DNA of 64,000 nt, from the NCBI GenBank assembly GCA_030390025.1, contig CM059431.1, forward strand, positions 123,506,001 to 123,570,000. The letters are read 5' to 3'. A program made the translations under genes and the position numbers. This DNA is from Squalus acanthias. Lineage: Eukaryota. This document shows, in pieces, positions 7,874 through 44,680 of the stretch; position 1 is the first letter of the stretch, and every line of letters starts with the position of its first letter. Below the pieces are notes generated by a model. It ran no database searches, was not told the origin of the DNA, and saw nothing but the letters and a program-made list of their open reading frames with translations.

Positions 7874-9614
7874 TAACAACAGAAAACGCTGGAAAAACTC
7901 AGCAGACCAGGCAGCATCCGTGGAGAGAGAAAGAGAGTTAACGTTTCAGGTTGATGACCTTTCGTCAGAACTGTGAAGAGCCGGAAATCAAATAGATTTA
8001 AGGCCAGAGTAAAGCTGGGAAAAGGGGGAGGGGATAAAAGAACAAAGGGGGAGATGAAGAGACATTAAGAGACATTAAGAGATATGCAAGGCTAGAGGTG
8101 GTGTTAATGTGACAGATTAAGGCTGAAAGAAGTGTGAAATCCACTGGCAGAATGAAGGACAGCTGCCAGCTTCTAGGAGGAAAAAAAAGGGTGGGGGGGG
8201 GGGCAAATAAAAGGGTGGAAAAAATAAAATATAAATGTGATTGGAGCTGAGGTTATGATCTAAAATTGTTGAACTCGATATTGAGTCCAGAGGGCTGTAG
8301 CGTGCCTAAACGAAAGATGAGGTGCTGTTCCTCGAGCTTACGCTGCACTTCCGTGGAACAGTGTAATAGGCCGAGGACGGTGAGGTCAGAGTGGGAGTGA
8401 AGCGGTGAATTAAAGTGACAGGCCACCGGGAGCTCGGGGTCCCCCTTACGGACTGAACGGAGGTGTTCCGCAAAGCGGTCACCCAATCTGCGTTTGGTCT
8501 CCCCAATGTAGAGGAGACCACATCGTGAGCAGCGAATACAGTATACTAAATTGCAGGAAGTACAAGTAAATCGCTGTTTCACCTGGAAGGGGTGTTTGGG
8601 GCCCTGGACAGTGGGAAGAGGGGAGGTGTAAGGGCATGTGTTGCATCTCCTGCGCGTGCACGGGAAGGTGCCGGGCGAAGGGGAAGGGGTGCTGGGGGTG
8701 GTAGAGGAGTGGACTAGGGTGTCGCGGAGGGAGCGGTCCCTGCGGAATGCTGAAAGGGGAGGTGAGGGGAAGATGTGTTTGGTGGTGGGATCACGCTGGA
8801 GGTGGCGGAAATGGCGGAGGATGATCCGTTGAATGTGGAGGCTGGTGGGGTGAAAGGTGAGGACAAGGGGAACCCTATCGTGGTTCCGGGAGGGAGGGGC
8901 AGGGGTGAGGGCAGAAGTGCGGGAGATAGAACGGACACGGTCGAGGGCCGTGTCGACCACGGTAGAGGGGAATCCTCGGTTGAGGAAAAAGGAAGACATG
9001 TCGGAAGCACTGGTGTGGAAGGTGGCATCATCAGAGCAGATGCGGCGGAGACGGAGAAACTGGGAGAATGGAATAGAGTCCTTACAGGAGGCGGGGTGGG
9101 AGGAAGTGTAGTCCAGGTAGCTGTGGGAGTCAGTGGGCTTGTAGTGAATGTTAGTCAATAACCTATCCCCAGAGATGGAGATGGAGAAGTCGAGGAAGGG
9201 AAGGGAAGAGTCGGAGATGGACCATGTGAAGGTGAGGGAAGGGTGGAAATTGGAAGCATAGTGAATGAAATGTTCTAGTTCAGGGCGAGAGCAGGAGACG
9301 GCACCGATACAGTCATCAATGTACTGGAAAAAGAGGTGAGGGAGGGGACCCGAGTAGGACTGGAACAAAGAGTGTTCCACATATCCCACGAAAAGGCAGG
9401 CATAGCTAGGACCCATGCGGGTACCCATAGCAACACCTTTAATTTGGAGGAAATGGGTAGAGTCAAAGGAGAAGTTGTTCAATGTGAGAACAAGTTCAGC
9501 CAGGCGGAGGAGGGTGGTGGTGGATGGGGACTGGTTGGGCCTCTGTTCAAGGAAGAAGCGGAGCGCCCTCAGGCCATCCTGGTGGGGAATGGAGGTGTAG
9601 AGGGATTGTACGTC
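7874..9614 (-). mobile_element. Penelope-like element family 1 (Neptune-like Cys linker), 5'-truncated
   Basis: 13-bp TSD catttaaatggaa at 7861-7873 and 9615-9627. Contains an RT + GIY-YIG ORF and a 3' pLTR region with a hammerhead motif. Confidence 0.92.
7934..7973 (-). ncRNA. Minimal type I hammerhead ribozyme motif in the PLE pLTR
   Basis: Minus strand reads agtt-CTGACGA-a-AGGT-catca-ACCT-GAAA-cg-tt-aact: conserved core, helix II, and palindromic helix III (AACGTT). Confidence 0.75.
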
Positions 9615-9617
9615 CAT
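8253..9617 (-). CDS. PLE reverse transcriptase (C-terminal part) + GIY-YIG endonuclease, 454 aa uninterrupted
   Basis: MDVQSLYTSIP (RT motif A), GVAMGTRMGPSYA, YIDD, YKPTD thumb, CxxxxCxxC linker, VYCIRC..CGLLYIGETKR.L..RF.EH, terminal GLN. Confidence 0.9.
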   Translation of the reverse strand: MDVQSLYTSIPHQDGLRALRFFLEQRPNQSPSTTTLLRLAELVLTLNNFSFDSTHFLQIKGVAMGTRMGPSYACLFVGYVEHSLFQSYSGPLPHLFFQYIDDCIGAVSCSRPELEHFIHYASNFHPSLTFTWSISDSSLPFLDFSISISGDRLLTNIHYKPTDSHSYLDYTSSHPASCKDSIPFSQFLRLRRICSDDATFHTSASDMSSFFLNRGFPSTVVDTALDRVRSISRTSALTPAPPSRNHDRVPLVLTFHPTSLHIQRIILRHFRHLQRDPTTKHIFPSPPLSAFRRDRSLRDTLVHSSTTPSTPSPSPGTFPCTRRRCNTCPYTSPLPTVQGPKHPFQVKQRFTCTSCNLVYCIRCSRCGLLYIGETKRRLGDRFAEHLRSVRKGDPELPVACHFNSPLHSHSDLTVLGLLHCSTEVQRKLEEQHLIFRLGTLQPSGLNIEFNNFRS

Positions 9618-11329
9618 TTAAATGGAACTGGCGAGTTGTGGGCGCCAAAAGGACATTTCAATGTATGGTAACTCTGGGGGGGGATGTCGCGATCACGGAA
9701 GTGGGGAGCCCGGGGTGGCAGTGACCCAGATTCTTGTTGTGGGGCCCAGAGGAGCACTCCTGGATCCACAAACACAATTTAAAACTTACCTTTTCAGGGC
9801 CTCTTCAGGTCTATCCCCAGTGAAACTGGCCAGTGCCTGCACGGTGCACACTCAGACCAGTCCAATGCTAAAATGTCAATCGGCGTCCTATGTATTTCAT
9901 AGGATTACCGCCACAGTATCGCTGATTTCGGCAAGTAGAAATCGACCTTTATGTCTGTTACCAACAAACCACCATACATCTGAATGGATTCAGTGATGTA
10001 ATCCAGATTTTTGAGGTCTCGGAAATACTCTAATTAGTTTGATCAAACATCTTCTTGATCTGTCTGAAAGCACAATACTCAGGACTGACAAGGTAACATC
10101 CCAGTACAGAACATCATACAGATATACCACTACTACGGAGTTGCATACCTCATCAACAATGACTATCAACGACTGGACTCAAACGCCTCGCAGAATTAGG
10201 TGCCCTCTATGAGAAAACCAGCAGATAAATACAGTAGTTTTATCTTTTAACAATATCTCTGTTGCTGTGGCTTCAACTACAGATAGCAACCATTAGTCAC
10301 TAGTTACCTATACAAAAATATACCATGTACACATCTCTCAGCAAATATACGCACCCAATTTTTAAACAAACCGATCACTGGGAAACTGAGTGACCATGAT
10401 GCGGAGATGCCGGTGTTGGACTGGGGTGGACAAAATTGAGAGGTCGCACAACACCAGGTTATAGTCCAACAGTTTTATTTGAAATCACAAGCTTTCGGAG
10501 CTATCGATTTGCTCCTTCCTCAGGTGAAGTAAATTAGATACAGAATCTCCAAAGCATATATAGATGGAAAACAAAGAATGTGTACTTTACAATTGCAGAC
10601 CAATAAATTAAATCATCCTGACTATCTGCCGAGGTGTGATAAAGTTAATTAAGTCAGCCAGGAAGGTACCACATCAAAGACATAGCAAGATACAACTGAG
10701 ACAATGAGGTGTAGTCGCAGGGGCTCTAACGTGTCAAAAGCTGCCGTCTGTATGTAAAACGAAAAGCTTTAACATTTTTTTACTTTTTTACTGGGAAAAT
10801 TTTTACTTTTTTTACTGGAAATCACATCTGTGAACAAGCTAACGACGACTCGAGTCCGGATCACGTCATGTATCGTGACATAAACCCAAGATCCCGATTG
10901 AGACCGTCTTCATGAGTGCGGAACTTGGCTATCAGTTTCTGCTCGATGATTTTGCGTTGTCGTGTGTTTCTAAGGTTGCCTTGGAGAACGCTTACCCGCA
11001 GATCCGAGGCTGAATGTCCTTGACTGCTGAAGTGTTCCCCGACTGGGAGGTAACAATCCTGCCTGGCGATTGTTGCGCGGTGCTCGTTCATACGTTGTCT
11101 CAGTGTCTGCATGGTTTCGCCGATGTACCATGCCGCGGTGCATTCTTTCCTGCAACGTATGAGGTAGACAACGTTGGCCGAGTCACATGAGTATGTACCA
11201 TGTACCTGGTGGGTAGTGTCCTCACGTGTGATGGTGGTATCTGTGTTGATGATCTGGCATGTCTTGCAGAGTTTGCCATGGCAGGGTTGTGTGGTGTCGT
11301 GGTCGCTGTTATCCTGAAAGCTGGGTAAT

Positions 11330-12394
11330 TTGCTGCGTTCAATACTTGCCTTCAATAATACTTGCCTGCAAACAGCCGCCTCGATGACGACAAACACCTC
11401 GCTAAGGCCATCCCCACGCCTCCACTACTTGCCTTCAAACAGCCGCCGAATCTCCATCAAAGACGGACACCTCAGCACTTCACTCTACCGCAAGCCCACG
11501 GACAACCTCACGATGCTCCACTTCTCCAGCTTCCACCCTAACCATGTTAAAGAAGCCATCCCCTATGGACAAGCCCTGCGAATACACAGGATCTGCTCAG
11601 ACGAGGAGGAACGCGATGGACACCTACGGACGCTGAAAAACGCCCTCGTAAGAACGGGATATGACGCCCGACTCATCGATCGACAGTTCCGACGGGCCAC
11701 AGCGAAAAATCGCATAGACCTCCTCAGAAGGCAAACACGGGACACAACCAACAGGGTACCCTACGTCGTCCAGTACTTCCCCGGAGCGGAGAAACTACGC
11801 CATGTTCTTCGCAGCCTTCAACATGTCATCGATGACGACAAACACCTCGCTAAGGCCATCCCCACGCCTCCACTACTTGCCTTCAAACAGCCGCCTAACC
11901 TCAGAAGTACCATCGTTCGCAGCAAATTACCCAGCTTTCAGGATAACAGCGACCACGACACCACACAACCCTGCCATGGCAAACTCTGCAAGACATGCCA
12001 GATCATCAACACAGATACCACCATCACACGTGAGGACACTACCCACCAGGTACATGGTACATACTCATGTGACTCGGCCAACGTTGTCTACCTCATACGT
12101 TGCAGGAAAGAATGCACCGCAGCATGGTACATCGGCGAGACCATGCAGACACTGAGACAACGTATGAACGAGCACCGCGCAACAATCGCCAGGCAGGATT
12201 GTTACCTCCCAGTCGGGGAACACTTCAGCAGTCAAGGACATTCAGCCTCGGATCTGCGGGTAAGCGTTCTCCAAGGCAACCTTAGAAACACACGACAACG
12301 CAAAATCATCGAGCAGAAACTGATAGCCAAGTTCCGCACTCATGAAGACGGTCTCAATCGGGATCTTGGGTTTATGTCACGATACATGACGTGA
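11330..12394 (+). CDS. Truncated PLE ORF: RT thumb + Cys linker + GIY-YIG endonuclease; the N-terminus derives from junction patchwork
   Basis: LYRKPTD, PCHGKLCKTC, NVVYLIRC...WYIGETMQTLRQRMNEH, GLNRD. The same C-terminus recurs on the minus strand at 10861-11397. Confidence 0.85.
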   Translation: MLRSILAFNNTCLQTAASMTTNTSLRPSPRLHYLPSNSRRISIKDGHLSTSLYRKPTDNLTMLHFSSFHPNHVKEAIPYGQALRIHRICSDEEERDGHLRTLKNALVRTGYDARLIDRQFRRATAKNRIDLLRRQTRDTTNRVPYVVQYFPGAEKLRHVLRSLQHVIDDDKHLAKAIPTPPLLAFKQPPNLRSTIVRSKLPSFQDNSDHDTTQPCHGKLCKTCQIINTDTTITREDTTHQVHGTYSCDSANVVYLIRCRKECTAAWYIGETMQTLRQRMNEHRATIARQDCYLPVGEHFSSQGHSASDLRVSVLQGNLRNTRQRKIIEQKLIAKFRTHEDGLNRDLGFMSRYMT

Positions 12395-12727
12395 TCCGGA
12401 CTCGAGTCGTCGTTAGCTTGTTCACAGATGTGATTCCCAGTAAAAAAAGTAAAAATTTTCCCAGTAAAAAAGTAAAAAAATGTTAAAGCTTTTCGTTTTA
12501 CATACAGACGGCAGCTTTTGACACGTTAGAGCCCCTGCGACTACACCTCATTGTCTCAGTTGTATCTTGCTATGTCTTTGATGTGGTACCTTCCTGGCTG
12601 ACTTAATTAACTTTATCACACCTCGGCAGATAGTCAGGATGATTTAATTTATTGGTCTGCAATTGTAAAGTACACATTCTTTGTTTTCCATCTATATATG
12701 CTTTGGAGATTCTGTATCTAATTTACT

Positions 12728-12770
12728 TCACCTGAGGAAGGAGCAAATCGATAGCTCCGAAAGCTTGTGA
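12728..12770 (+). ncRNA. Minimal hammerhead ribozyme motif (mirror copy on the minus strand at 10485-10527)
   Basis: tcac-CTGAGGA-a-GGAGC-aaatcgata-GCTCC-GAAA-gc-tt-gtga; helix I tcac/gtga; palindromic helix III AAGCTT. Confidence 0.8.
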
Positions 12771-15245
12771 TTTCAAATAAAACTGTTGGACTATAACCTG
12801 GTGTTGTGCGACCTCTAAACTGAGGGACGCCATAGATTACCTGTGTTCTCGGTTCAAATCCAATACAAATTAATGGTATAAAAGTCTCGCGGTCCAATGG
12901 TGGTTAAATGTAAGATGAGCTTGCGTGTCGGTTCCTAGTAGCTAATGGCCCACAATGCAACACTAATCATAATTTGCTGCTAAATTAACAAGATCATTCA
13001 GAAGTCAAAACTATCTGCTGCGAGAATTGAAAGATTTCACACTACTATAACATGGGTTGCTCTTCAAAGGTCAGAGTTAATATGTACTGTTGGACAGAGC
13101 AAAGTCAACTTCATTCTGCATATTTCTGTACTATACCTGACCCGTGAATACTTGATGCCGATGAAGAAAAAATGTACCCCATCATTTACAGCACTGACAT
13201 TTCTCATCTTGCTGAGCATAAAAAATCACTAAAAAAATGCCTTGCAAGACCGAAATAATCCCAATTTAGTTAAATAACGGTAAAACCTGCTTTTTCTCTT
13301 TTTTCATAGAATCATAGAATGGTTACAGCACAGAAGGAGGCCATTCGGCCCGTCGAGCCCATGCCGGCTCTTTGCAAGAGCACTTCAGCCAGTCCCACTC
13401 CCCTGCCCTTTCCCCGTAGCCCTGCAAATTTATTTTCTTCAGGTACTTATCTAACTCCCTTTTGAAAGCTGTGACTGAATCTGCCTCCACCACCCTTTCA
13501 GACAGTGCATTCCAGATCCCAACCACTCGCTCAGTAAAAAAGTTTTTCCTCATGTTGCCTTTGGTTCTTGTGCCAATCACCTTAAATCTGTGTCCTCTGG
13601 TTCTCAACCCTTCTGCCAATGGGAACAGTTTCTCTCTATCTACTTTGTCTGGACCCCTCATGATTTTGAACACCTCTATCAAATCTCCTCTCAACCTTTT
13701 CTGCTCTAAGGAGAACAAACCCAGCTTCTCTAATCTATCCGCGTAACTGAAGTCTCTCATCCCTGGAATCATTCTTGTAAATCTTTTCTGCACCCTCTCT
13801 AAGTCCTTCGCATCTTTCCTAAGTTGCAGTGCCCAGAATTGGACACAATACTTCAGTTGAGGCCGAACCAGTGCTTTATAAAGGTTCATCATAACTTCCT
13901 TGCTTTTGTACTCTATGCCTCTATTTATGAAACTCAGGATCCCGTATGCTTTTTTAACTGCTTTCTCAACCTGCCCTGCCACCTTCAATGATTTGTGTGC
14001 ATATACCCCCAGGTCTCTCTGTTCATGCACCCCCTTTAGGATTGTACCCTTTAGTTTATGTTGCCTCTCCTCGTTCTTCCTACCAAAATGTATCACTTCG
14101 CACTTTTCTGCATTAAATTTCATCTGCCACGTGTCCGCCCCGTTCACCAGCCTGTCTATGTCTTCTTAAAGTCTATCACTATCCTCCTCACTGTTCACTA
14201 TACTTCCAAGTTTTGTGTCATTTGCAAATTTTGAAATTGTGCCTTGTACATCCAAGTCCAAGTCATTAATATATATCAAGAAAAGCAGTGGTCCTAGTAC
14301 CGACCCCTGGGGAACACCACCGTATATCTTCCTCCAGTCCGAAAAACAACATTTCACCATTACTCTCTGTTTACTGTCACTTAGCCAATTTCGTATCCAT
14401 GCTGCCACTGTCCCTTTTATTCCATGGGCTTCAACTTTGCTGGCAAGCCTAATATGTGGCACTTTATCAAACGTCTTTTGTAAGTCCATCTATACCACAT
14501 CAACCGCATTGCCCTCATCAACCCTCTCTGTTACCTCATCAAAAAACTCAATCAAGTTAGTTAAACACAATTTGCTTTTAACAAATCCATGCTGTCTTTC
14601 CTTAATTAATCCACACTTGTCCACGTGACTGTTAACTTTGTCCCTGATTATCCTTTCTAAAAGACTTCTCACTACTGAGGTTAAACTGACTGGCCTGTAG
14701 TTGCTGGGTTTAGCCTTACACCCTTTTTTGAACAAGGGTGTAACATTTGCAATTCTCCAGTCCTCTGGCACCACCCCAGTATCTAAGGAGGATTGCAAGA
14801 TTATGGCCAGTACCTCCGCGATTTTATCTTCCCTCAGAATTCTAGGATGCATCCCATCCGGTCCTGGTGACTTATCAACTTTACGTACAGACAGCGTTTC
14901 TAGTACCTCCCTTTATCAATTTTTATCTCATCCAGTATCTCGACAACTTCCTCTTTCACTATGACTTTGGCAGCATCTTCTTCCTTGGTGAAGACAGATG
15001 CAAAGTACTCATTTATTTCCTCTGCCATGCCCTCTGCCTCCATGCATAGGTCTCCATTTTAGTCCCTAATCGGCCCCACCTCTCCTCTTACTGCCCATTT
15101 ACTATGAATATGTCTATAGAAGACTTTTGAATTCCCTTTTATGTTAGCTGCCATTTGTAAAATTTCCAAAATTTGCAGATCCCCCAAAAAATATCTAAAG
15201 GAAAAAAATAAGGACTTTGCATCATACTAGGCTGCACTGAACTAG

Positions 15246-16238
15246 GTGTGCGTACTGTATGGGGCATGGTTGCTAGGCGAGGGCCGGAGTAACCTGGAGG
15301 ATTTAAAGCAAGGTTTAGTCCACTCCTGGATCAGCAACAAGCACCTCGCAGCCCTCCACCCATTTGAGAATTCACTAAGCCCGTGTCAGCTCTGTCTAGC
15401 CTCTGAAGCCTACCCTGTACTAGTAGATTGTGGGTGTTCCAATCACACTATCATGGGGATAGTGGTGAGGATGCCGGTCATGGGTGGGACCGCCCGACCC
15501 GCACTGGTATACAGGGTGCAGAACATTGGAGTCATTCAAGGGGGTGCACACATCCGTTTCACAGCGGTCCCACCTTATGTCATAAAGTGGGAGCATGCTA
15601 TGACAGGTACTGGCGTCTCCGGGTGCCGGAGCCGGGGTTCACACATAATACTGTGTCCCCAGCACTTGAACGCCTATTCTAAACCACAGTGTGGGTTTAA
15701 AGCTGCGGGCGCACGACCTATAAATTGTACCATGGAAGCCATGGCACAAGACCATGTTCCCCCACAGGTAACATATATAGGAGGTGGGACATATTGTGTC
15801 ACCACCAGCGCGCCTCACTACCAGTATGGACAGCATACCTGGTGTCCAGTAAGTGACAGCAGTTTCTGCTTTAAACCCGAGGCAGAAGTTCAAGTGGCCC
15901 AGGAACAGATTGTCCCCATTCCTGAACCCTCCACTGTTCACCTCACTGTAACACAAAATTTCACCAACCTGCAAAAATATGTAGCACATTTTGGCTACGA
16001 AATTCCCCCTCTACCGGAATGCCTTACCAAGTTACTAAAAGCTGTAGAGCTCTCTCAAAAACATTTCTACACTTTAGAACAAAATACACACGAGATAGAG
16101 AGAGAGATTCAAGGTATCACAGTCCCACCCTGGTGGGACATCTTCGAAAACATAGAGGTCCCTTCATGGGTCAGAATGGCTTCCCACCTCCTCGTAGTTT
16201 GCCAACTGGGAATAGTATTGTACCTGTTGTGCACTTAG
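15246..16238 (+). pseudogene. env: Envelope glycoprotein TM-subunit-like ORF (foamy virus Env / F-protein-like), N-terminally truncated
   Basis: 330 open codons immediately upstream of the PPT and 3' LTR. Cys-rich ectodomain, N-glycosylation sequons (NHT, NCT, NFT), heptad-like helix, PPWW membrane-proximal motif and a hydrophobic anchor. Family assignment is from recalled similarity only. Confidence 0.7.
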
Positions 16239-16615
16239 TGCAAGGGAAAGGGCAGAATACTACAGTTCCAAAATGAAAGGACTTGGAAGAAGCATTATGC
16301 TGAGGTGGAGATAGATACACCTGTTTACATTTTTTAATTCTGTGTTCCTGAATAAAGATTGTTGTTTTTTTGTGTTTTGTTCTTTTTAATAAAGATATGT
16401 GTTTTCCCAAGCAGTGCAGGGGTGTTGGACCCTCTCCGTGCTTGGTTGTGAAAGAAAGATTTTCTTGCCTGTATGTACCTAAAACACCACATTTAAAGGG
16501 GAATGTATGTTTGGGTTTTAGTTTAGGTAATACAGGGGAAGGTTGGTTTTCGGGGATCAGGAATTTTGTCCACCCAGGACGATACTGTAGTGAACTGAAG
16601 TATCGCAGGAGGGAC

Positions 16616-17528
16616 TGTAAGATTTCCAAAATTTACAGATCCCCCAAAAAATATCTAAAGGAAAAAAATAAGGACTTTGTAACTTTAAAGGAACATGTCT
16701 GGACATGAACAGCACGTGGATTGTCTGGGACTTCAAAGCCCAGCAAACATTAACATTTGGACAATAGGCCCTGGGAAAAGGCCACCCCGCCCAAAACACA
16801 GAGCCCATAGGAATGCTAGGCCCAGCAAGGAACCCAAAGCATGAGAACAATGCAAGCTTCCATGGAACAACAGCTCAACAGGATGTAAACCATTTGATTT
16901 GGTTTAGCATAGTTGAAAGCCCATCAAAATTTAACAAGACAATGAACAAGCCTCACCTGAAACTCACTGCATTACGAAACCAGTTTTCGTGAGGAGTTTT
17001 GTGGGGGGGGGGGGTGGGGCTGAAAAAGGACTATATCTGCAGCAGGACCCAAGATCTCTTTCTCTTTTGACTCGCCGACCACGCTGGAATGCTCCCTCTC
17101 AGCTCTGCCCAGAAGCCACATGGTAAAGGAAGACATTTGATGACCAGAATCTCCATCGACTTACCTGGCTGGATTTCGTACTGTTAATACCCCTGTTTGG
17201 TGAGCATTATCCCTGATCTCCTGAAACCGAAACCTAGATAGAAGTGGGATTTTTGGGAGGGATAAAGGTTTATTTTCTTGTATACTGTCATTTTCCCTCG
17301 CCTGTAACCGTGTGTTCTCTAAACCTGTTTAAGTGTGAAGTGTGTTTAAGTTTGTTACCTTTTAATTTTAATAAAAGTTACAGTTCTTATCATCGGAACC
17401 TGTTGTCTACTGCATATTTATTCACAACCCCTAAATAAGTCCAAGTTTTGAACCTGGGGCGTGGGAGCGATTTGAACCGCTCACTGAGTCAGGGGAAAGG
17501 CTGACCCCTAAAACAACCACTCCCTACA
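16616..17528 (+). repeat. 3' LTR of the env-bearing element
   Basis: Starts TGTAAGATTTCC after the PPT and ends CCCTACA before the TSD. TATA-like at about 17032; AATAAA at about 17370. Confidence 0.85.
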
Positions 17529-18165
17529 CATTCTATTCTCATACTCTCTTTTGCCCCTCGTATTTTCTTTTTCACTTCCCCTCTGAACTTTCTATATTCA
17601 GCCTGATTCTCACTTGTATTCTCAACCTGACATCTGTCATACGCCCCTGTTTTCTGCTTCATCTTACTCTGTGTCCTTTCATCATCCAGGGAGCTCTGGC
17701 TTTAGTTGCCCTAACTTTCAGCCCCCCCCCCCCGCCCCGTCGGAATGTACCTCGACTGTCCCTGAACCATCTCCTCTTTAAAGGCAGCTCATTGTTTGAT
17801 TAAGTTTTGCCTGCCAATCTTTGACTACAATTTACCCATTCTCAACCCACTGAAATTTGTCTTCCTCCAATTAAGTATTTTTACTCTAGATTGCTCCCTT
17901 TCCTTTCCCATAGCTAATCTAAATCTTATGATACTATGATCATTGTTCTCTAACTGTTCCCCTATTGACACCTGCTCCACTTGACCCACTTCATTCCCCA
18001 GAACCAGATCCAGCAATCCCTCCTTCCTCGTTGGGCCGGAAACGTACTGATCAAGAAAGTTCTCCTGAACACACTTCAGAAATTCTTCCCCCTCTCTGCC
18101 CTTTACACTATTACTGTCCCAGTCTATATTAGGATAATTGAAGTCCCCCATTATCACCACTCTAT

Positions 18166-19060
18166 GGGGGAAAAATTCAGTTGCTTGCGCCTCCTGTTAG
18201 CGCCTTAAGAGGGCGCTAATGGGGCGCAAAGCAACTAGCGCCCGGGCGCGACGATGTTTGCGCTGCTCGCGAAATTAACTATACATTTTGCGGTGGCGCT
18301 AAACACTACCGCCACGATCTCCTGCGCCAGCAGATTGTGACGTCAGTCGAGTGCGCAACGCCCCGGTAGCGCCCCGGAGCGGATATTGAGTGGCGCCCCC
18401 TGCCTTACCGCCTGCCGCTAGGAACGACAGGTTGAGGGGAGCATTTTGCAGTCAGGAAGGGACTGGGGGAGCGCTATTTAAAGGCGACCGCTTCCTGCCT
18501 TTTTTTGTTGGTGACATTTTTGAAGCACGCATTCTGAGAGAGAGAGAGAGAGAGACTTCTCGAGAGATTCAACGCTGTGTGAAGGAGTTTTGGGTACTGA
18601 GCAGCACTTTGCAGTGTCATTTTAATTTGCCCTTCCTTGTATCGATTTAGAAGAGACAGTGGGGGCTGCACTCTGAGCTCTTTCCCTGGTACTCTCCATT
18701 GTTCTTTCCAGCAGATTTGATGTACAAGTCTCTCCAGGCTGAGATTCAAGGCTGCAATGAGCAGGGTGTGGATGGGAAGCAAGATCAACCCACCCCTTTA
18801 AGAACTGGCCCACGCCATTGTGTGTGTGTTCCATTGTTGACTGACATCACATGAGCTTCGCCAGCGCTCTGAGGTAGCACCTCGCTCCTCGGCCTTTGCG
18901 CCTTAAGACAGATGTGTAGCGCCTGATTTAGCGCTCCAATCACCTCCAGGGGCGATAAACGTCAAGTTTACAGTCGGAGGTGATAATTAGCGCCAGGCGC
19001 TAATCTTTGCGCCCGGCCGATAATTGCACCCCAAAGGGGGCAAAACTGAATTTTTCGCCC
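18166..19060. mobile_element. Non-autonomous PIF/Harbinger-type element (MITE)
   Basis: TIR GGGGGAAAAATTCAGTT / AACTGAATTTTTCGCCC (16 of 17 match). 3-bp TSD tat at 18163-18165 and 19061-19063. Confidence 0.85.
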
Positions 19061-25707: not shown

Positions 25708-28039
25708 CCCATGGCATTATTTTGAAGAAGAGCAGGGGAGTTATCCTCGGTGTCCCGGCCAATATTTATCCCTCAATCAACATCACAAAATCAGATTATC
25801 TGGTCACTATTACATTGCTGTTTGTGGGAGCTTGCTGTGTGCAAATTGGCTGTAGCGTTTCCTACATTACAACAGTGACTAGACTTCAAAAAGTATTTCA
25901 TTGGCTGTAAAGCGCTTTGGGCATCCTGAGGTCATGAAAGACGCTATATAAATGCAAATCTTTCTTTTTTTATATAAATGATGTTTGATGCTGATCCCTC
26001 AGACCTGTTGTGCAGTATGCTTATACTGACAGTGCATTGCTGTTCTTATGTGTGCACAGTGGTAGTTCTCAATGTTCTATTATGGTGTGTACTTCCTTAC
26101 AATCCATCTGCTTGCAATTGTATTTAAAAAGCTCTGCAGCACTCAGTTTCATTATATTATCAGCATTGTTGAAATACATTTAAACTGTATAATTACACAA
26201 TGGCTACTGGGAACAGCAGCTTATAGTAATCAGCAGAATAGCTAATTATTCAACTACGCATTGTCCATTCGTGCAATTGATTTGAATCATAGATGGCTGA
26301 AACTGTGACTTATAAACTAGGATTTAGGTGTAGCATTTATAGTGGGTACTTGTTACAGCATTGAAATTCAGAATAACAATGTTTTACTACAGAAGTTTCA
26401 GTTATCAGGATGAACAACGTCCTCATTATCTGTTGCCAGGCTTATTGTTGAAACTACAGTAGATGTATTCATGTGAAAAATGAAAGTGAGAACAACTCCA
26501 GATATGCATTGTTTCATGCCACTGCTAGTAAAGAAATGATATAGAAAAGAACTCAATGCAAATCAGACATAAGTAGTTTTTGTTTAAGTAGCCAGAAGAT
26601 AGATAAGTAAGGGGTTGTCATTTCTATCTTAACTTACAGTTTGTAATGCTATTGTTGAGTCAGGGAATGAAACCAATATGCAGAGGGCCTATTCGGAAAT
26701 GGAACACAACTCTTTTGGAATAACATTTTTGAGATACAGTATATGAGTAATTCGAGACATGACATGTGGTAAGTATAGCATGCTTGGGAGGAACAGGTGA
26801 CTTTGGCACTATGTTTCCTAAAGGTTTCCTCCAGTGGGGTTCTCCTCACCTCACATCTGGGTCTATTGTAGACTGATTGATAGAGATTGATTGCTATGAT
26901 TAGTCAACAACGTCGTTATCATTGTACCTTGGACTATCAGGATGGTAGAAGGTGGACTAGATGGACCTTGGTCTTTTTTCATCCAGCAATTCTTCTGTTC
27001 CTGTATAAATTATTATTACTACAGTAAAGCATCTTGTATACAAATGTGAAAAAGTTGAGAAACAGTATTGCCACAAAGTGCTGCAGTACTGTTACAAGGT
27101 GAAATGTAGATGGAAATATATGTACAACATGGCAGGAGATATTTTGAGACAACTGTTGCATTTTAATTGGATTTGGATTACAAGGCATTTGTCATTATGT
27201 ATAAAAAATAATCTTTTGAAAAAACTTTCCAACATATCTGGTGAAATTCTAATTCAGGCATGACTGGTTTGCTAAGAAATGATTTGCTTTCACAGTAATT
27301 AAAACACGGGAGATAGGCTGTCGTAGCAAGGTCGGCTGTACATGGCTGCTAGGCAATGGAAATAAATTAGGATAATTTTCAATTTTTTTATGAAGTTGAT
27401 TAAAAAATCTCTGTTGGAAACATGAACCCAATGGCAAAACTTTGCAAAGTGTGTTCCTGTGATAAAAAAAACACAACACAGTGGTGAATCCCTGCAGGGA
27501 AAAGGAATGTGGCGAAGTGTGTGAGAAATTAGAGCATTGCAGCAAAGGAAATCACTATAAGAAATGAATCTCACTTCCTTGGGAGAAACAAGGGTATTGC
27601 AAATACTGTAACTAAATGCAAAAACCTCAGCAAAAAAGGACAGCCACACAGTGAATAAACTGCTGGAAAGAGGAATATTTTTGTGTTTGAGTTTCTGTAA
27701 CCAGAAACGACAGGATCACAATAGATTCTTTAAAGGAAACATTGTAAAAAGTTGCTGTGAAACATTGGGAAATACTATATTGTTGAGGCTGCCGTGAAAC
27801 ACGAATTAAGGCTGAATCCATTTGTGTTGAACAAGAGACTTTTTAATCACAGCATGGCACAAAATGGCAGAACCGAAAAACTCCCAGAATTCTCTGGGTA
27901 AAACCTGAGGCCCCGCCCCCTCCTGCCTTAAAGGTAAGGTGCCGTAAAGGGAAGGGGCTGGAAATTTGTCCACAGACGGAAGAGTGGATTATGCTCGTTT
28001 TAGGTGGCGATCCGCCACACAGCTCCCACCAGAATCCGC

Positions 28040-31000
28040 TTAGGTGGTGTGGACGAGACGGTGCGGCGGTCTGATGGGCCGGCCGGAGCGGCTCTTGTAG
28101 GACGCCGGTGGACGTGGAATGGCCGGGCGTGGAGCAGCCGGGTGAACCGGCTTGAGGGCAGGTCGGCCACGTGGAGGTGGACGAGCTACAGGGACCTGCT
28201 CACCGGGCTCCGAGTGTGCTGGCTTGAGTCGGTCAACCAACACTTTTTCGGTCCTGTCGCTCACCTGCAGGGTGAAAAATTTGTCCCCAGCCTGTAGCAC
28301 CTTGTAGGGCCCGTCATACGGGGGTTGAAGGGGTCCGCGGTGGGCGTCGTGCCGGACGAAAACAAACCGTGCCTGGTGCAGGCTTAGTGGGACGTGTGAG
28401 GTGGATTCGCCGTGCCGGGCAATGGGCACCGGGGCGAACTGCAGCGCCGGTGAGGCGAAGTCCTGGCGTTGCTGGTCGGCTGACCAGGGTGTCGTGGCGG
28501 TGGGCAGGAACTCGCCGGGTACGCGCAGCGGCTGACCGTACACGAGATCTGCTGCCGATGCTTGGAGGTCTTCTTTAACCGCAGTGCGCAGGCCGAGGAG
28601 GACCCACGGAAGGCGGTCGGTCCAGGCGCCGTCTTGGAGGCTGGCTCGAAGAGATGCCTTCAAGGATCTATGGAACTGCTCACACAGTCCGTTGGCTTGG
28701 GGGTGGTACGCTGTGGTGCGGTGAATGGTCACCCCGAGATTGCGTGCGACGGCGGTCCAGAGTTCAGAGGTAAATTGCGGACCTCTGTCCGACGTCATGT
28801 CAGAGGGGACACCGAACCGTGCGACCCAGGTGCTGACGAAGGCTCTGGCGATGTCGGCGGTGGTGGTAGAGGTCAGTGGAATTGCCTCAGGCCAGCATGC
28901 GGTGCGGTCAACGATGGTCAGCAAGTGCGTGTGGCCTTGCGACGGCGGCAGGGGCCCAACGATGTCCACGTGGATGTGGTCGAATCTCCGCGAGGGGACG
29001 GTAAACTCCTCGAGGGGTGCTTTCGTGTGTTGCTGTACCTTGGCCCGTTGGCAGGCTAGGCAGGAGTTGGCCCAAGTACGCACATCCTTGCGAAGGCAGT
29101 GCCAGACGAAGCGGTTGGCTACCAATTTGATGGATGCGCGGGCGCCGGGGTGGGAGAGGTTGTGGAGAATGTCGAATACCCGGCGGCGCCAGGACGCTAG
29201 GACGACGGGCCGAGGTTGACATAGGGATATGTCGCACTTGACCGTGACAGCTGTCGGGCCACAGGCGACGTCGGCCAGGCGTAGCCCTGGTAGGTTGGTG
29301 GGTGCGGAGAGCAGATCAGGGTCGGTGATCTGGTCTGCTGCGAGTTGAGTGTAGTCGACTGCTAGGTGTGCCACGTAGATGGCAGGGCGAGAGAGGCAGT
29401 CGGCTACCACATTGTCTCGGCCGGAGACGTGTTGGATGTCCGTGGTGAACTCGGACACTGCCGCGAGCTGGCGCTGCTGCCTGGCGGACCAGGGGTCGGT
29501 TGTCTTTGCCATTGCGAATGTCAGGGGCTTGTGGTCGACAAACGCAGTGAAGGGGTGGCCCTCAAGCAAAAACCGGAAATGGCGGACCGCCAGGAACAGC
29601 GCGAGGAGCTCGCGGTCGAAGGTGCTGTACTTGACCTCCGGGGGGGCGTATTTGGCGGCTGAAGAAGGCAAGTGGTTGCCAGGTGCCGTCGACCCACTGC
29701 TCATACACGGCGCCGACCGCGTGGTCGGAGGCGTCCGTGGTGAGCGCTACCCTGGCATTGGGCCGTGGGTGCGCGATCAGGGTGGTGTTGGCGAGCGCGG
29801 TCTTGGTGGAATCGAAGGCGGCGGACGCGTCTGCCGTCCATTCGACCGCCATCTTGCCGCTCCTGCCCCGGAGGGCTTCATACAGCGGCCTCATGAGGGA
29901 CGCCGCTTTGGGATGAAGCGGTTATAGAAATTCACCATCCCGAGGAACTCCTGGAGGCCTTTGATGGTGGTGGGGCGGGGAAATTGTTGGACGGCCTGCA
30001 CCTTGGTGGGCAGGGGAATGGCCCCAGCATGGGTGATGTGGTGGCCGAGGAAGTCGATCTTGTCCAGGCCGAACTGGCATTTGGCTGGCTGAGGATGAGC
30101 CCGTGGTCGCGGAGGCGCCCGAACAGGATGCGAAGGTGTTCGAGGTGTTCCTGCTTGGAGGAACTGGCTACCAGGATGTCGTCCAGGTAGATGAACAGGA
30201 ACTTCAGGTCCCGAAGGACCGAGTCCATGAGCCGTTGGAATGCCTGGGCCGCGTTTTTGAGGTCGAAGGGCATCCGCAGGAACTCGAACAGGCCGAAGGG
30301 GGTGATTACGGCCGTCTTGAGGACGTCCGCGGGGTGGACGGTGACTTGGTGGTAGCCGCGCACCAAGTCGACCTTGGAAAAGACTGAGTGGCCGGCCAGT
30401 CTAGCCGAGAAGTCCTGAATGTGCGGCACGGGGTACCGATCAGGGGTGGTGGCATCATTGAGGCGGCGGTAATCCCCGCAGGGGCGCCAACCTCCGCCTG
30501 GTTTGGGGGCGATGTGGAGTGGGGAGGCCCAGGGACTGTTGGAGCGGCGGATGATGCCGAGCTGTTCCATGGTGGCAAACTCGGTCCGCGCGATCTCCAG
30601 TTTGGCCGGGTCCAGCCTGCGGGCGTGGGCGTACACTGGGGGGCCTGTGGTGGGGATGAAGTGTTCCACCCCGTGTTTGGCGGCCTCCGCGGAGAAGGTC
30701 GGATTGGTAAGTGCTGGGAATTCGGCCAGGAGTGCCGAGTCGTCATCCGTGGCCCGGGCGTGGCACTGTGACGCCATGTCGGCGGGTTGACGGGGGGCCA
30801 TGGCGCCCAGGATGGGGGACATGGTGTTCATGTCCACGAGGCGGTGACGAGGGATGTCTACCAGTAGGCCGTGGGCGCACAGGAAATCTGCGCCGATGAG
30901 GGGGGAGAGCAACTTGGCAGTCATGAACTCCCATCGGTAGCAGTGACCAGCGAGGTCGAGGGTGACTGTCCGGGTGCCATACGTCCGGATTTCCGAGCCG

Positions 31001-31851
31001 TTAGCAGCAGCCAGCGCCGGTCCTTGTTCGCCCTTTTGGATGTCGAGGGAGGAGGCCGGGATGATGCTGTGCTGAGCCCCAGTGTTGCACAGGAACCGGC
31101 GGCCGGTTTTGTCATCCGTGACGAACAGCAGGGAGCCCACGTGGCCCACGGCCATCGCGGGTGCTGGAACGGGGGCGGACTTGAAAGAGCAGGGAGTTGT
31201 GTACCGTTGTGCCCTGGCGCCGAACCGTGCGTGGTAGTAACAGTGGCCCGGGTTAGTGGGGCGTGAAGGCCCCGTGGGCCTGGTGACAGGCCCTTGTGGC
31301 CGCGTGGTGGCCGGTGAGGGGCGCGCCCAGGCATTGGCTGCCAGGTCCGGAGTGACGTCGCGGCTGGAGTGAGTGGACAGCAGCTTGTCGGCCTCATCGG
31401 CCAGGGCTTCCAGGTTCATGAGGCCGGACGCCACGATCGCTGGGCGGATGCTGAGAGGGAGCTGTCGGATGAACAGCGTGTGGAAGAGGGATCTGGGTGG
31501 GCTCTCGTCGGTGAGGGAGAGCATGTGGGAGAGGAGGTCTGACGGTGAGGCATCACCGAGGCCTGGAAGGTCGAGGAGGTGGCAGTTTCGCTGATATGCC
31601 GAGGCTGTAAATATTTTAAGGAGCGCTGTCCTGAGATGTGCATACTTGCCTTCCTCTGGTGGGTTCTGCAGTGTTGTCCAAACCCTGGAAACTGTGGCGC
31701 TACCGAGTGATGTGACGAGATAGTCGTACTTCGTCCCATCTGCGGTGATATTTTGCAGCCAGAAGCGAGATTCAGCTTGGAGAAACCAGGCTTCGGGCTG
31801 GTTTTCCCAAAACTCCGGCAGTTTCACGGAAACTGCGTTCGTGTCTGCCAT
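28040..31851 (-). pseudogene. gag-pol: gag-pol polyprotein (Gag, protease, RT, RNase H, integrase) broken by frameshifts
   Basis: Gag VKLPEFW...AWF.QAE and a CHCC-like motif CYYHARFG..A.RY..PC; protease FLCNTGA (catalytic D appears as N); RT YLDD; RNase H TDAS and YSTFDRELLA; integrase H..SH/C..CQ, DIVGP, SDRGPQF, YHPQANG and GPY. Split across ORFs 29932..31851, 29562..29894 and 28040..29704. Confidence 0.92.
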
Positions 31852-31876
31852 TGCAGTGCTCGGAATACGTTCTGAG

Positions 31877-31890
31877 CGTCGGGGTCACCA
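31877..31890 (-). promoter_or_regulatory. Primer binding site complementary to tRNA-Trp
   Basis: TGGTGACCCCGACG starts after a 1-nt spacer following the 5' LTR and matches the 3' end of vertebrate tRNA-Trp. Confidence 0.88.
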
Positions 31891-32172
31891 ATGTTGAGGC
31901 TGTGGCGAAACACGAATTAAGGCTGAATCCATTTGTGTTAAACAAGAGACTTTTTAATCACAGCATGGCACAAAATGGCAGAACCGAAAAACTCCCAGAA
32001 TTCTCTGGGTAAAACCTGAGGCCCCGCCCCCTCCTGCCTTAAAGGTAAGGTGCCTTAAAGGGAAGGGGCTGGAAATTTGTCCACAGACGGAAGAGTGGAT
32101 TATGCCCGTTTTAGGTGGCGATCCGCCACAATATCAGGAGCTCAGCAAACCTTTCAGAACTATCAAGAAAAT

Positions 32173-38629: not shown

Positions 38630-38839
38630 ATATGGTCAAAGAGATACACCAAAAACACCCACAAGGGCATTACATCGGCAGAAAATGTTAATTTTTGAGC
38701 AGTTTAATTTAGGGTAAAGTTTAATTGAGAAGCTGCTGAGAAAAATAAACATAAAGGCAAAATTCAATATCTCAAATATGATCCTGGCCTGTTCTGGCTT
38801 CTAACTGGGATGATTCCTCCTAACACTTATGTGGATAAT

Positions 38840-39071
38840 ATAAACAGAAAATGCTGGAAATACTCAGCAGGTCAGGCAGCATCTGTGGAGAGAGAAACAG
38901 AGTTAACGTTTCAGGTCTGTGTCTTTTCGTCAGAACTGAAACGTTAGGTCACAGACCTGAAACAGATAGCTCTGTTTCTCTCTCCACAGATGCTGCCTGA
39001 CCTGCTGAGTATTTCCAGCATTTTCTGTTTATATTTCATATTTCCAGCATCTGCAGTATTTTGCCTTTTGT
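38840..39071. mobile_element. Palindromic PLE family 1 mini-element
   Basis: Inverted arms of about 85 bp of pLTR sequence plus a tail. 15-bp TSD acttatgtgg(a/g)taat at 38825-38839 and 39072-39086. Confidence 0.85.
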
Positions 39072-42632: not shown

Positions 42633-44680
42633 GGCCTGGAATTTCCTCAATTTGATTCGTGCAGCGGTTGTGTTATATCTACCACCACTAGAGGGAGATA
42701 AACAGATGTTTCCTCAGTCTGCTCATTTGCACACCCATGAGTGCAAGCATTGGTCTGAAATCAGCATGAGATTGGTGTAAGTAACTGAACCAACAGGAAA
42801 CTTCTGTGCAGCTTTTAAATCCACTGTTCAGCTGTGCGATTCAGCAGCACACTGTGCGACAGGAAGGTCAGGCAAGGTACACTGCTTGTTTTTTCATTTC
42901 TCTCAAATTATTTCACTGCATGTCTTACCAATGTTTTTATTACACTTGGGTAGCATTATGAAAACTCAAGTGCCACCTGTGCCCAGTGGACAGCAGAGCA
43001 TGGCACCAAGCCAGAAGAGAACAATGCACAACTTCACTTGTTCAGATATCCAAGCCCTCCTGGGGGGTGGGAGGGGGGCATCGAAGGTAGGATGAACAGA
43101 TTCCTGGGGGTGGGTGACACCAAGTCACCAAGAATTATCACTTGTGCCACCAGGGAGGGAAGTGGCACTGGCACTGATTGTCAACTCCCTCATCCTCAGG
43201 AGTGCAGAATAGTGCTGCAGGAAGTTTCATATCCTCAGCAGGACAGGTAAGGCAACACACTGCACACCTCTCCCTTTTTCTTCCTTGTCATCCTGGGAGC
43301 CAGCACAATCTTCACCCTATAACTAATCCTTCCATAACTAATCCTTCACAATGCTCCCTATTGGCTTCCAACTTCCTATTGTCCACTATAACTGCACAGC
43401 TTCCCTGACACCAATAACTGTCATGCACAAGCTGAAAACCCCTTCCTCTACTTTAACTGCGAGAAGTCGCACAACACCAGGTTATAGTCCAACAGCTTTA
43501 TTTGAAATCACAAGCTTTCGGAGCGCTGCTCCTTCGTCAGGTCACCTGACGAAGGAGCAGCGCTCCAAAAGCTTGTGATTTCAAATAAAGCTGTTGGACT
43601 ATAACCTGGTGTTGTGCGACTTCTCACATTTGTCCACCCCAGTCCAACAACCGGTATCTCCAAATCATGGCTACTTTAACTGCCTCATACCCCCACATCT
43701 CTTATTACACCTTTCCCATGTTACACGACACACATTCCTCAACTACCAGCCTTAACCTTATTAACTCTTTGTATGTAAAATTTGGCACACAATGCTCTCC
43801 AAAGGCAGGCCACCGGAAGGAGATTCCCGACATTTAAACCCCTCACCTACTTTGATGACAAGGCCATGCAGCTGACGGGCAGTTACACAGCTCGTGGGAG
43901 ATGGCGAGGTTGGCGGTATTTTGCCAGTGCCAGGTTACTGACAGAGCATTTGCACTGGCGTCGCTCTGAGGCATCACACAGTCACGACCTTTCACCCCCT
44001 CCTCCGTCTCCTTAACCCTATGGGAAAATGCTCACGCATTCTCGCTTTCTACCCTCCTTACCTGCAGGTCCACCACTGTAATCGGTGCACAGGAGGAGGA
44101 AGATGATAGTGAAGAGGATGAGGAGGACCAAGCCACCCAGGAGTTGCAGCTGAATGATGTTGCTGTGGGGGTGGGGAGGGGGGGGGCGGTGGTTCAAAAA
44201 CATACCAGCGCTCCAGCCTGGTGAGAAACAGTCAGAAACAAGTGCAGGTTTCTGTCAGCAGAATGGGAAAATAACTGCTTATAAATCTGTTTCCTACCCA
44301 CAGAAATCTTTTTTTTAAAGATCTTCAGACTCTTCTCTCTGTCAGCAACTCCTCACTTCAGCTTTTAACAACAGATCCCGACAGCTGCTGTGCCTCGTCG
44401 AGCTGATGTTAACTTGCCCCTGTGGGCAGCAGCTGTGTAAATTCGGGAAACCCGCAGGTCCTTTGCCACGTGCTCCCAATTACATGTATTCAAATGAGGC
44501 CGGTGGCAACTTGGCAAGTAGATCGCTGCACAGCTCCAGGATCAGGAGGAGACTCGGGGAAGCCGTTTAAATTCGCAAGTTGGCCAGAAACACCTTCTAC
44601 CTGACCTTTCATGTCAAAAAAGCCAGTAGCATCATTCCAGTGCCGCTAAAGCATTGCAAACTACAAGGAAAATTAGGCCC
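42633..44680 (+). mobile_element. Decayed Harbinger-type element with Myb/SANT remnants
   Basis: Imperfect TIR GGCCTGGAATTTCCT / AGGAAAATTAGGCCC; tgt flanks. Peptides HNFTCSDIQALLGG and HNALQRQATG echo the Myb/SANT gene at 63034. Confidence 0.55.
43461..43670. mobile_element. Palindromic PLE family 2 mini-element with hammerhead motifs on both strands
   Basis: 82-bp arms at 43461-43542 and 43544-43625, 1-nt spacer, 45-bp tail. 13-bp TSD ctactttaactgc at 43448-43460 and 43671-43683. Confidence 0.92.

What the first reader, a model, noticed from the sequence alone, without database searches (positions are those of the whole stretch)
15156..17528. Env-only proviral remnant with a foamy-virus/F-like glycoprotein
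Seen: intact termini and TSD, but 64 bp into the 5' LTR a deletion removes gag-pol and joins to a 330-codon open frame with a C-terminal membrane anchor. From memory, the segments YRVQNIGVI, HIRFTAVPPYVI, GCRSRGSHIILCP and PQCG...NC...QVTYIGGGTYCV follow the order and Cys spacing of the foamy virus Env TM ectodomain. No gamma-type ISD/CX6CC motif is visible. Inference: a member of a spuma-related, lokiretrovirus-like or env-bearing Gypsy lineage of cartilaginous fish.
Basis: partly seen in the sequence, partly recalled or inferred. Interest (0 to 1): 0.7.

Follow-up and report, generated by a model that had tools for sequence, protein, structure and literature searches.

The report
Dead shark provirus, half F-type envelope
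This is a broken, silent copy of a multi-copy shark retrovirus that keeps only the back half of an envelope gene folding like measles/RSV-type and foamy-virus fusion proteins; the copy is ordinary, but an intact relative shared by three shark orders may be a captured host gene.

Summary
Observation confirmed: a 2,373-bp LTR element (TGTA…TACA, 4-bp TSD CATT) sits in a CR1-type LINE; its 5' LTR stops after 64 bp and joins env. The 330-codon frame is not a whole env: it is the C-terminal ~45% (end of HRA, domains I/II, HRB, membrane anchor), bounded by in-frame stops, with no signal peptide, fusion peptide or promoter. It is a dead remnant. The fold is F-like: best structural matches are foamy Env 632–851 and RSV F 218–465 (Z about 6, tied); a full-length relative gives Foldseek E 1e-7 to paramyxovirus F. 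Relatives come from sharks, a skate, frogs and coelacanth. Full-length relatives lack the foamy receptor-binding insertion, differ from published lokiretrovirus Env, and lack gamma-type motifs. Lineage stays open because no pol could be linked; foamy-like shark/frog ERVs and the snakehead-retrovirus clade lead. This scan already noted F-like shark envs on other DNA of the same genome. New lead: an intact, gap-free 739–754-aa relative is 85–88% identical across three shark orders, possibly a captured env gene.

The parts
15152..15155 (+). left copy of 4-bp target-site duplication (CATT)
   Evidence: empty paralogous site
15156..15219 (+). 5' LTR remnant: first 64 bp only (start of U3 by position); rest of U3, R, U5, PBS, gag, pol and 5' env deleted
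   Evidence: 62/64 identity to 16616-16679
15219..15245 (+). deletion junction and first env-homologous codons, with two in-frame stops (15228-15230, 15243-15245); overlap with the LTR remnant about 1-2 bp
   Evidence: translation compared with relatives (inference on overlap length; no intact copy at DNA level)
15246..16235 (+). 330-codon open stretch: C-terminal part of an F-like (class Ib) Env transmembrane subunit; first Met at residue 70, no signal peptide
15249..15308 (+). helix at residues 2-21, equivalent to the C-terminal end of HRA
   Evidence: model; aligned range starts at foamy Env 632 and RSV F 218
15504..15941 (+).
16017..16115 (+). long membrane-proximal helix (residues 258-290), HRB equivalent
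   Evidence: aligned to 287-292 in post-fusion F and foamy Env rows
16176..16232 (+). membrane anchor (residues 311-329)
   Evidence: hydropathy 2.07; pLDDT above 90
16236..16337 (+). premature stop (16236-16238), then 32 further codons in frame where relatives have a cytoplasmic tail
   Evidence: relatives P0005-P0007, P0012, P0043
16607..16615 (+). short polypurine tract abutting the LTR (border GGGAC|TG)
16616..17528 (+). complete 3' LTR, 913 bp, TGTA...TACA, one AATAAA at 17370
17529..17532 (+). right copy of target-site duplication (CATT)
13304..15155 (-). host element, 3' part: decayed CR1-type LINE ORF2 (RT region) interrupted by the insertion
   Evidence: RVT_1 E 0.0011; 87-88% to the copy at 48591-50349; the CR1 label is recalled
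17529..18196 (-). host element, 5' part: LINE endonuclease region
   Evidence: Exo_endo_phos_2 E 1e-9; 85% to 50348-50967

Best explanation
A retrovirus of a multi-copy chondrichthyan ERV family integrated into a CR1 LINE with a 4-bp duplication (shown). One deletion with at most about 2 bp of overlap joined base 64 of the 5' LTR to the middle of env, removing promoter, primer site, gag, pol and the front half of env (shown; timing inferred, most simply after integration). The copy can be neither transcribed from its own 5' LTR nor copied again, and has since decayed (stops shown; neutrality inferred). The parent virus used a class Ib, F-type fusion protein: furin cleavage, N-terminal fusion peptide, HRA/HRB refolding into a six-helix bundle (fold shown by models; mechanism from established knowledge of F and foamy Env). 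Its Env had a short F2-like piece like paramyxovirus F and lokiretrovirus Env, no foamy RBD insertion, and an extra N-terminal extension as likely attachment module (inferred). Lineage odds, all inferred: shark/frog foamy-like ERVs about 0.35, snakehead-retrovirus clade about 0.3, lokiretrovirus-related about 0.1, env-bearing Gypsy about 0.1, other (epsilon-like, unnamed) about 0.15.
For: Termini, TSD, empty site. Multi-copy family: contigs of 4 of 4 runs cover 30 of 30 bins, some 98-99% alike over 172-520 bp, others 80-90%; three Pristiophorus copies are 58-70% identical to each other. Fold of the window frame: among 48,161 chains the top three are foamy Env 8rm1 (Z 6.1, 123 aligned, rmsd 15.6) and two RSV F chains (Z 5.5, 5.3); the top 10 Foldseek rows are all F or foamy Env, best E 0.011. 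Full-length relative P0013: 199 PDB matches at E<=0.001, all 42 listed rows paramyxo/pneumovirus F, best E 1.1e-7; VIA top two foamy Env Z 7.4 and NDV F Z 7.3. Furin site 75-84 residues after the first F2-like strand in 6 of 6 relatives measured. Decay: 19 listed env differences from laid contigs fall 7/5/7 on codon positions (p 0.81), 8 of 19 in TG/CA context against 16% background (p 0.007).
Against: Structural scores for the window frame alone are middling (no Foldseek PDB match at E<=0.001, Z under 8, pTM 0.38, high rmsd); the best BFVD match is a chuvirus-type glycoprotein (E 3.6e-4) and the ESM feature search put Baculo_gp64/rhabdovirus-type clusters first at a low recognition score. No Pfam or PDB sequence match. 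No pol was linked to this env, so 'retrovirus' rather than env-bearing Gypsy is inferred. The codon count uses only the 20 env rows among the 40 shown of 390 differences (one dropped), and the runs may be of other species.
Confidence: 0.85

Rival explanations
1. The deletion arose before integration, by an aberrant strand transfer during reverse transcription: DNA synthesis jumped between env and the nascent U3 end, giving a short DNA with two correct attachment ends that integrase inserted normally.
For: Both TG/CA ends and a clean 4-bp TSD are intact, and the junction has only about 1-2 bp of overlap; such jumps use microhomology (established knowledge, recalled).
Against: An internal deletion after integration gives the same picture with fewer steps. 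Nothing here separates the two.
Confidence: 0.2
2. The element is a bona fide endogenous foamy virus (Spumaretrovirinae).
For: Foamy Env ranks first in both wide structure searches; 4-bp TSD and long LTR fit (PMC5210030 passages); one frog relative has an N-terminal hydrophobic stretch and two furin sites as in foamy processing (P0020).
Against: Z is tied with F; no room for the 327-residue RBD insertion in 6 of 6 relatives measured; PPT/LTR border is GGGAC|TG, not GGGTG; no foamy Env among 28 hits of the 1.84-billion-protein search, judged by the source names of the 24 looked up or named.
Confidence: 0.12
3. The element is a lokiretrovirus, the first from cartilaginous fish.
For: Lokiretrovirus Env is F-like with a short F2 piece (PMC7947760); frogs and coelacanth host both lineages.
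Against: 0 hits for 5 family motifs in the held supplement text (23 Env headers; file cut at 799,488 characters); the 8 Env entries shown lack the three-Cys domain II pattern and the N-terminal extension, by eye; Scyliorhinus torazame, Chiloscyllium punctatum and C. plagiosum were screened negative for lokiretrovirus RT yet carry this env family.
Confidence: 0.1
4. The element is an env-bearing Ty3/Gypsy retrotransposon with an F-type env.
For: F-type env is widespread in invertebrate errantiviruses (bioRxiv 10.1101/2023.10.26.564294, abstract and section 6); one chimeric relative has a weak Baculo_F score (E 0.0011, below cut-off); 4-bp TSD fits.
Against: All named relatives are from jawed vertebrates; the 913-bp LTR is long; earlier scan notes place similar shark envs on retroviral elements (unchecked).
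Confidence: 0.1
5. The open frame is kept by selection as a host gene or exon.
For: 330 codons without a stop; gene models in other sharks splice similar pieces into host transcripts (P0010, P0021, P0039).
Against: Stops on both sides inside env-homologous sequence, no start or signal peptide, promoter deleted, differences even across codon positions; only 1-3% divergence is needed to explain an open stretch of this length.
Confidence: 0.03

Closest known systems
Foamy virus Env gp130 (PDB 8RM0, 8RM1, 8OZH; PMC11468914, passages and section 9 read)
   Same: Class Ib F-like fold; the window frame aligns to residues 632-851; 4-bp TSD; long LTR.
   Different: Relatives have no RBD insertion between HRC and the furin site; no GGGTG border; no detectable sequence similarity (10% in the structural alignment).
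Paramyxovirus and pneumovirus F (PF00523; PDB 1ZTM, 3MAW, 9HVW, 4MMQ)
   Same: Same fold and order of parts; short F2-like piece before the cleavage site.
   Different: Encoded in an LTR element; about 180-240 extra N-terminal residues in full-length relatives; 9-13% identity; no PF00523 hit.
Lokiretrovirus Env (Wang and Han, PMC7947760; parts 1-3 of 4 and supplement passages read)
   Same: F-like env in an LTR element of aquatic vertebrates; short F2; similar spacing of the first four domain I cysteines (by eye).
   Different: Lacks the domain II Cys motifs and the N-terminal extension; reported absent from the chondrichthyan genomes looked up in its screen.
Shark and frog foamy-like ERVs CmiFLERV and XtrFLERV (PMC5512871, passages read)
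   Same: Host pattern: a shark-plus-frog clade, for which the authors found only pol and no env.
   Different: Linkage of this env to their pol is untested; match is by host range only.
Snakehead retrovirus clade (clade Huo, PMC6001957 passages; CmiERV lineage I, PMC4422223 part 1 of 2)
   Same: Present in cartilaginous fish; earlier scan notes place F-like-env shark ERVs here (unchecked).
   Different: No SnRV Env comparison could be made; SnRV Env is not named among the 50 BFVD rows listed.

Membership tests
Integrated LTR retroelement | TG...CA termini, paired LTR sequence, short TSD, PPT | tested here: met
Class Ib (F-like) fusion proteins | Domain I/II/III fold with HRA and HRB | tested here: met
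   window frame, middling scores; full-length relative, E 1.1e-7
Class Ib (F-like) fusion proteins | Furin site followed by a fusion peptide and heptad repeat | tested here: met
   Present in relatives P0002, P0009, P0012, P0013, P0015, P0020, P0035; deleted from the window copy
Spumaretrovirinae (foamy viruses) | RBD inserted between HRC and the furin site | tested here: not met
   75-84 residues from first F2-like strand to furin site in 6 of 6 relatives against RBD 217-543 in foamy Env
Spumaretrovirinae (foamy viruses) | GGGTG at the PPT/3' LTR border | tested here: not met
   GGGAC|TG in this one copy; motif from PMC5210030
Spumaretrovirinae (foamy viruses) | 4-bp TSD | tested here: met
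   not unique to foamy viruses
Spumaretrovirinae (foamy viruses) | Accessory genes between env and 3' LTR | tested here: inconclusive
   Only 377 bp lie between the env stop and the LTR; one 118-codon stop-to-stop frame (16352-16708) crosses it and was not searched
Spumaretrovirinae or foamy-like ERVs | RT/Pol phylogeny | not testable with these tools
   No host genome held; no related loci in viral or metagenome contigs; no pol-env gene model
Lokiretroviruses | F-like Env | tested here: met
Lokiretroviruses | Env sequence type of the published members | tested here: not met
   0 hits for 5 motifs; 8 of 23 Env entries viewed; no profile score could be computed
Lokiretroviruses | RT sister to known retroviruses; tether plus RNase H | not testable with these tools
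   pol deleted; no linked copy found
Gamma-type Env (class I ERV) | CKS17/ISD motif and CX6CC | tested here: not met
   0 of 20 proteins for either (pattern from PMC12813294 section 14)
ERV3 / ERV4 | 5-bp TSD (typical, not strict) | tested here: not met
   4 bp here; table in PMC4299795
Snakehead retrovirus clade | RT phylogeny and Env similarity to SnRV | not testable with these tools
Env-bearing Ty3/Gypsy (errantivirus-like) | Metaviridae RT with F-type env | not testable with these tools
   No pol; Baculo_F below cut-off in 1 of 28 proteins scanned

The most novel reading that the evidence does not exclude
This remnant belongs to an undescribed F-type Env family of sharks, skates, frogs and coelacanth that is built like paramyxovirus F with an added N-terminal attachment arm rather than the foamy RBD insertion. 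It may be the missing env of the shark/frog foamy-like ERVs, and one member was captured as a host gene before horn sharks, carpet sharks and catsharks split, making it an old, non-gamma-type captured envelope in egg-laying sharks.
Probability: 0.45. Interest if true: 0.72.

Novelty: new variant of a known kind. Interest (0 to 1): 0.38.

Why it matters
The locus itself does nothing: a deleted, decayed provirus. Its value is as a marker of a third layout of F-type retroviral Env, beside foamy Env (RBD inserted) and lokiretrovirus Env (bare F). Placing the linked RT would test whether F-type Env is ancestral in retroviruses, a question left open in PMC7947760. Surveys that use gamma-type queries, such as the 40-chondrichthyan screen in PMC12813294, would not retrieve this family. 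The intact, conserved shark relative is a directly testable candidate for a captured fusogen of a type unlike the syncytins.

Tried and rejected
Pfam and PDB sequence searches: nothing for the window frame or the family profile beyond coiled coils. Host genome not held, so copy number, recurrence of the deletion and pol linkage were not tested. Scans for related loci found none: viral contigs, metagenome contigs. Search for longer pol-env gene models returned 2 proteins, neither with pol. No RNA holder listed; no evidence on expression either way. No listed contig piece bridges the 15219/15220 junction, but most rows were hidden, so this says nothing. Rfam: 0 matches in 15000-17700. ESM Atlas: weak leads only. 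Dating from the 64-bp LTR pair is nearly uninformative: 3.1% (95% interval 0.4-10.8%), 7 to 71 million years as point values for rates 2.2e-9 to 2.2e-10. Two hits (P0028, P0032) were dropped as repetitive bacterial-type false matches; the chimeric gene models P0010, P0012, P0021 were left out of alignments A3, A4 and the tree. An Ig fold for the N-terminal extension was not established here: pLDDT under 50 for residues 1-180, no Pfam Ig hit, only a source name for P0013 and one Ig-like motif in P0012. Ten paper searches listed no paper describing this env family or a captured F-type env in sharks; the library lacks most subscription papers, and the paper on cartilaginous-fish endogenous foamy virus (PMC9972966, title seen only in a reference list) was not held and may bear on novelty. 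The PMC7947760 supplement was cut when stored; the PMC12813294 supplement lists coordinates, so its lack of motif hits is no evidence.
Full report
Observation. The element runs from 15156 to 17528 on the + strand, begins TGTA, ends TACA and is flanked by CATT on both sides. It interrupts a LINE on the - strand (RT and endonuclease Pfam hits; the CR1 label is recalled). A second copy of that LINE in the window aligns to the left flank up to 50349 and to the right flank from 50348, and contig loose ends at 15155 run straight into the right flank, so the duplication is 4 bp. The only internal repeat is 64 bp, 62 of 64 identical to the start of the 913-bp 3' LTR. The 330-codon frame and every quoted segment are there.

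What the frame is. Homology searches gave 8 proteins and 28 representatives, 2 of which I dropped as repetitive false matches. Named ones come from Pristiophorus, Scyliorhinus, Chiloscyllium, Heterodontus, Heptranchias, Mustelus, Rhincodon, Rhinoraja, Pelodytes, Xenopus and Latimeria. The closest are 59-81% identical. Full-length relatives have 720-754 residues with a furin site, a fusion-peptide-like stretch and a heptad region upstream of where the window frame starts. The frame starts at about residue 372 of the 739-aa P0013. Env homology begins at the junction itself, with stops at 15228-15230 and 15243-15245; another stop at 16236-16238 falls just after the anchor, where relatives continue into a tail. 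The first Met is residue 70, with no signal peptide. So the copy holds less than half an env, and no promoter.

Fold. The model of the window frame (26 sequences, pLDDT 74.7, pTM 0.38) has no PDB match at E<=0.001, but its top 10 Foldseek rows are all pneumo/paramyxovirus F or foamy Env. Among 48,161 chains the top three are foamy Env 8rm1 (Z 6.1, residues 632-851) and RSV F (Z 5.5, 5.3; residues 218-465); a second look ties RSV F (6.2) with foamy Env (6.1). These are middling scores with high rmsd. The full-length relative P0013 settles the fold: 199 matches at E<=0.001, best 1.1e-7 to hPIV3 F; VIA ranks foamy Env (7.4) and NDV F (7.3) first. Against this, BFVD ranked chuvirus-type glycoproteins first and the ESM search gave mixed weak leads. 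Foamy Env and F share this fold (PMC11468914, passages and section 9).

Lineage. In 6 of 6 relatives measured, 75-84 residues separate the first F2-like strand from the furin site, leaving no room for the foamy RBD (residues 217-543); instead they carry an N-terminal extension. The PPT/LTR border is GGGAC|TG, whereas foamy viruses and teleost foamy-like ERVs share GGGTG (PMC5210030 passages). Published lokiretrovirus Envs share the short F2 but none of 5 family motifs was found in the held supplement, and that study marked four chondrichthyan genomes as negative, three of them species that carry this env (PMC7947760). Gamma-type motifs are absent from 20 of 20 proteins. A 4-bp TSD is typical of ERV1 and foamy viruses, 5 bp of ERV3/ERV4 (PMC4299795 passages). 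The shark-plus-frog host range recalls CmiFLERV and XtrFLERV, which group together and for which only pol was found (PMC5512871 passages). Earlier notes of this scan on the same genome describe F-like envs with an Ig-like head and place their viruses variously near snakehead retrovirus or foamy viruses; sequence look-ups did not tie those notes to this element. No pol could be linked, so the lineage is open. An unrooted tree of 21 proteins puts the window frame in a well-supported group (100/99) with three Pristiophorus and three unnamed proteins, apart from other shark groups and from a branch (100/100) holding the frog, coelacanth and intact shark proteins (long branches noted by the tool).

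State of the copy. Contigs from 4 of 4 runs (three organism labels) cover all 30 bins, from 80% to 99% alike, which fits a multi-copy family; depth is no copy number. Of the 40 differences shown (390 in all), 20 lie in the env frame; leaving out the stop site, 19 fall 7/5/7 on codon positions and 8 lie in TG/CA context against 16% expected (p 0.007). This fits neutral, methylation-driven decay, with the caveat that the rows are a selected subset. Without U3 promoter, R, U5 and primer site the copy cannot be transcribed from its 5' LTR or reverse-transcribed (established knowledge), so the same junction should not recur at independent sites. Whether the deletion came after integration or during reverse transcription cannot be told.

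Side lead. Three intact relatives, from Scyliorhinus torazame (754 aa), Heterodontus francisci (754 aa) and Chiloscyllium punctatum (739 aa), align without a gap at 85-88% identity, whereas three copies within Pristiophorus are 58-70% identical. These are three shark orders, all egg-laying, that split well over 100 million years ago (recalled). That pattern suggests a captured gene; recent cross-species infection is the rival. Synteny and dN/dS were not testable. It is 32% identical to the window frame and is not this locus.

Verdict. The locus is an ordinary dead remnant of a family whose Env layout I found in none of ten paper searches, though this scan has met similar envs before. Other papers seen: PMC4422223 (part 1 of 2), bioRxiv 10.1101/2023.10.26.564294 (abstract, first part of section 6), PMC12440569, PMC10699275, PMC6001957 (passages), PMC12813294 (passages, section 14, supplement search).

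Noticed in passing
proteins P0035, P0040, P0013 (not in the window): Intact, gap-free F-like env of 739-754 aa, 85-88% identical across Scyliorhinus, Heterodontus and Chiloscyllium: candidate captured envelope gene of sharks.
   Followed up: partly
proteins P0020 (Pelodytes, 723 aa) and P0034 (Xenopus tropicalis, 519 aa): Long open frog members of the same env family; P0020 has an N-terminal hydrophobic stretch and two furin sites, as in three-part foamy processing.
   Followed up: partly
proteins P0010, P0021, P0039: Shark gene models in which env pieces are joined to cadherin-related, FBXO15 and Niban-like host exons; exonisation or annotation error.
   Followed up: no
window 27781-32130 (-): Near-complete Gypsy-type element: LTRs 97.5% identical, ATAT duplication, long gag-RT and RNase H-integrase frames.
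   Followed up: partly
window 10436-12819: A 902-bp inverted repeat at 99.6% identity (10436-11337 and 11918-12819) overlapping GIY-YIG frames of Penelope type; another such frame at 8256-9617 (-) (the Penelope label is recalled).
   Followed up: no
window 17159-17167: A perfect splice-donor-like site on the - strand inside the 3' LTR, the strand of the host LINE; possibly chance.
   Followed up: no
window 38837-39035 and 43455-43631: Two palindromic stretches of 177-202 bp (90% and 96%), with partial copies elsewhere in the window; likely miniature inverted-repeat elements.
   Followed up: no
BFVD rows 6 and 27: Walleye epsilonretrovirus Env polyproteins appear as weak structural matches (E 0.011, 0.22), a hint that F-like Env may reach into epsilonretroviruses.
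   Followed up: no
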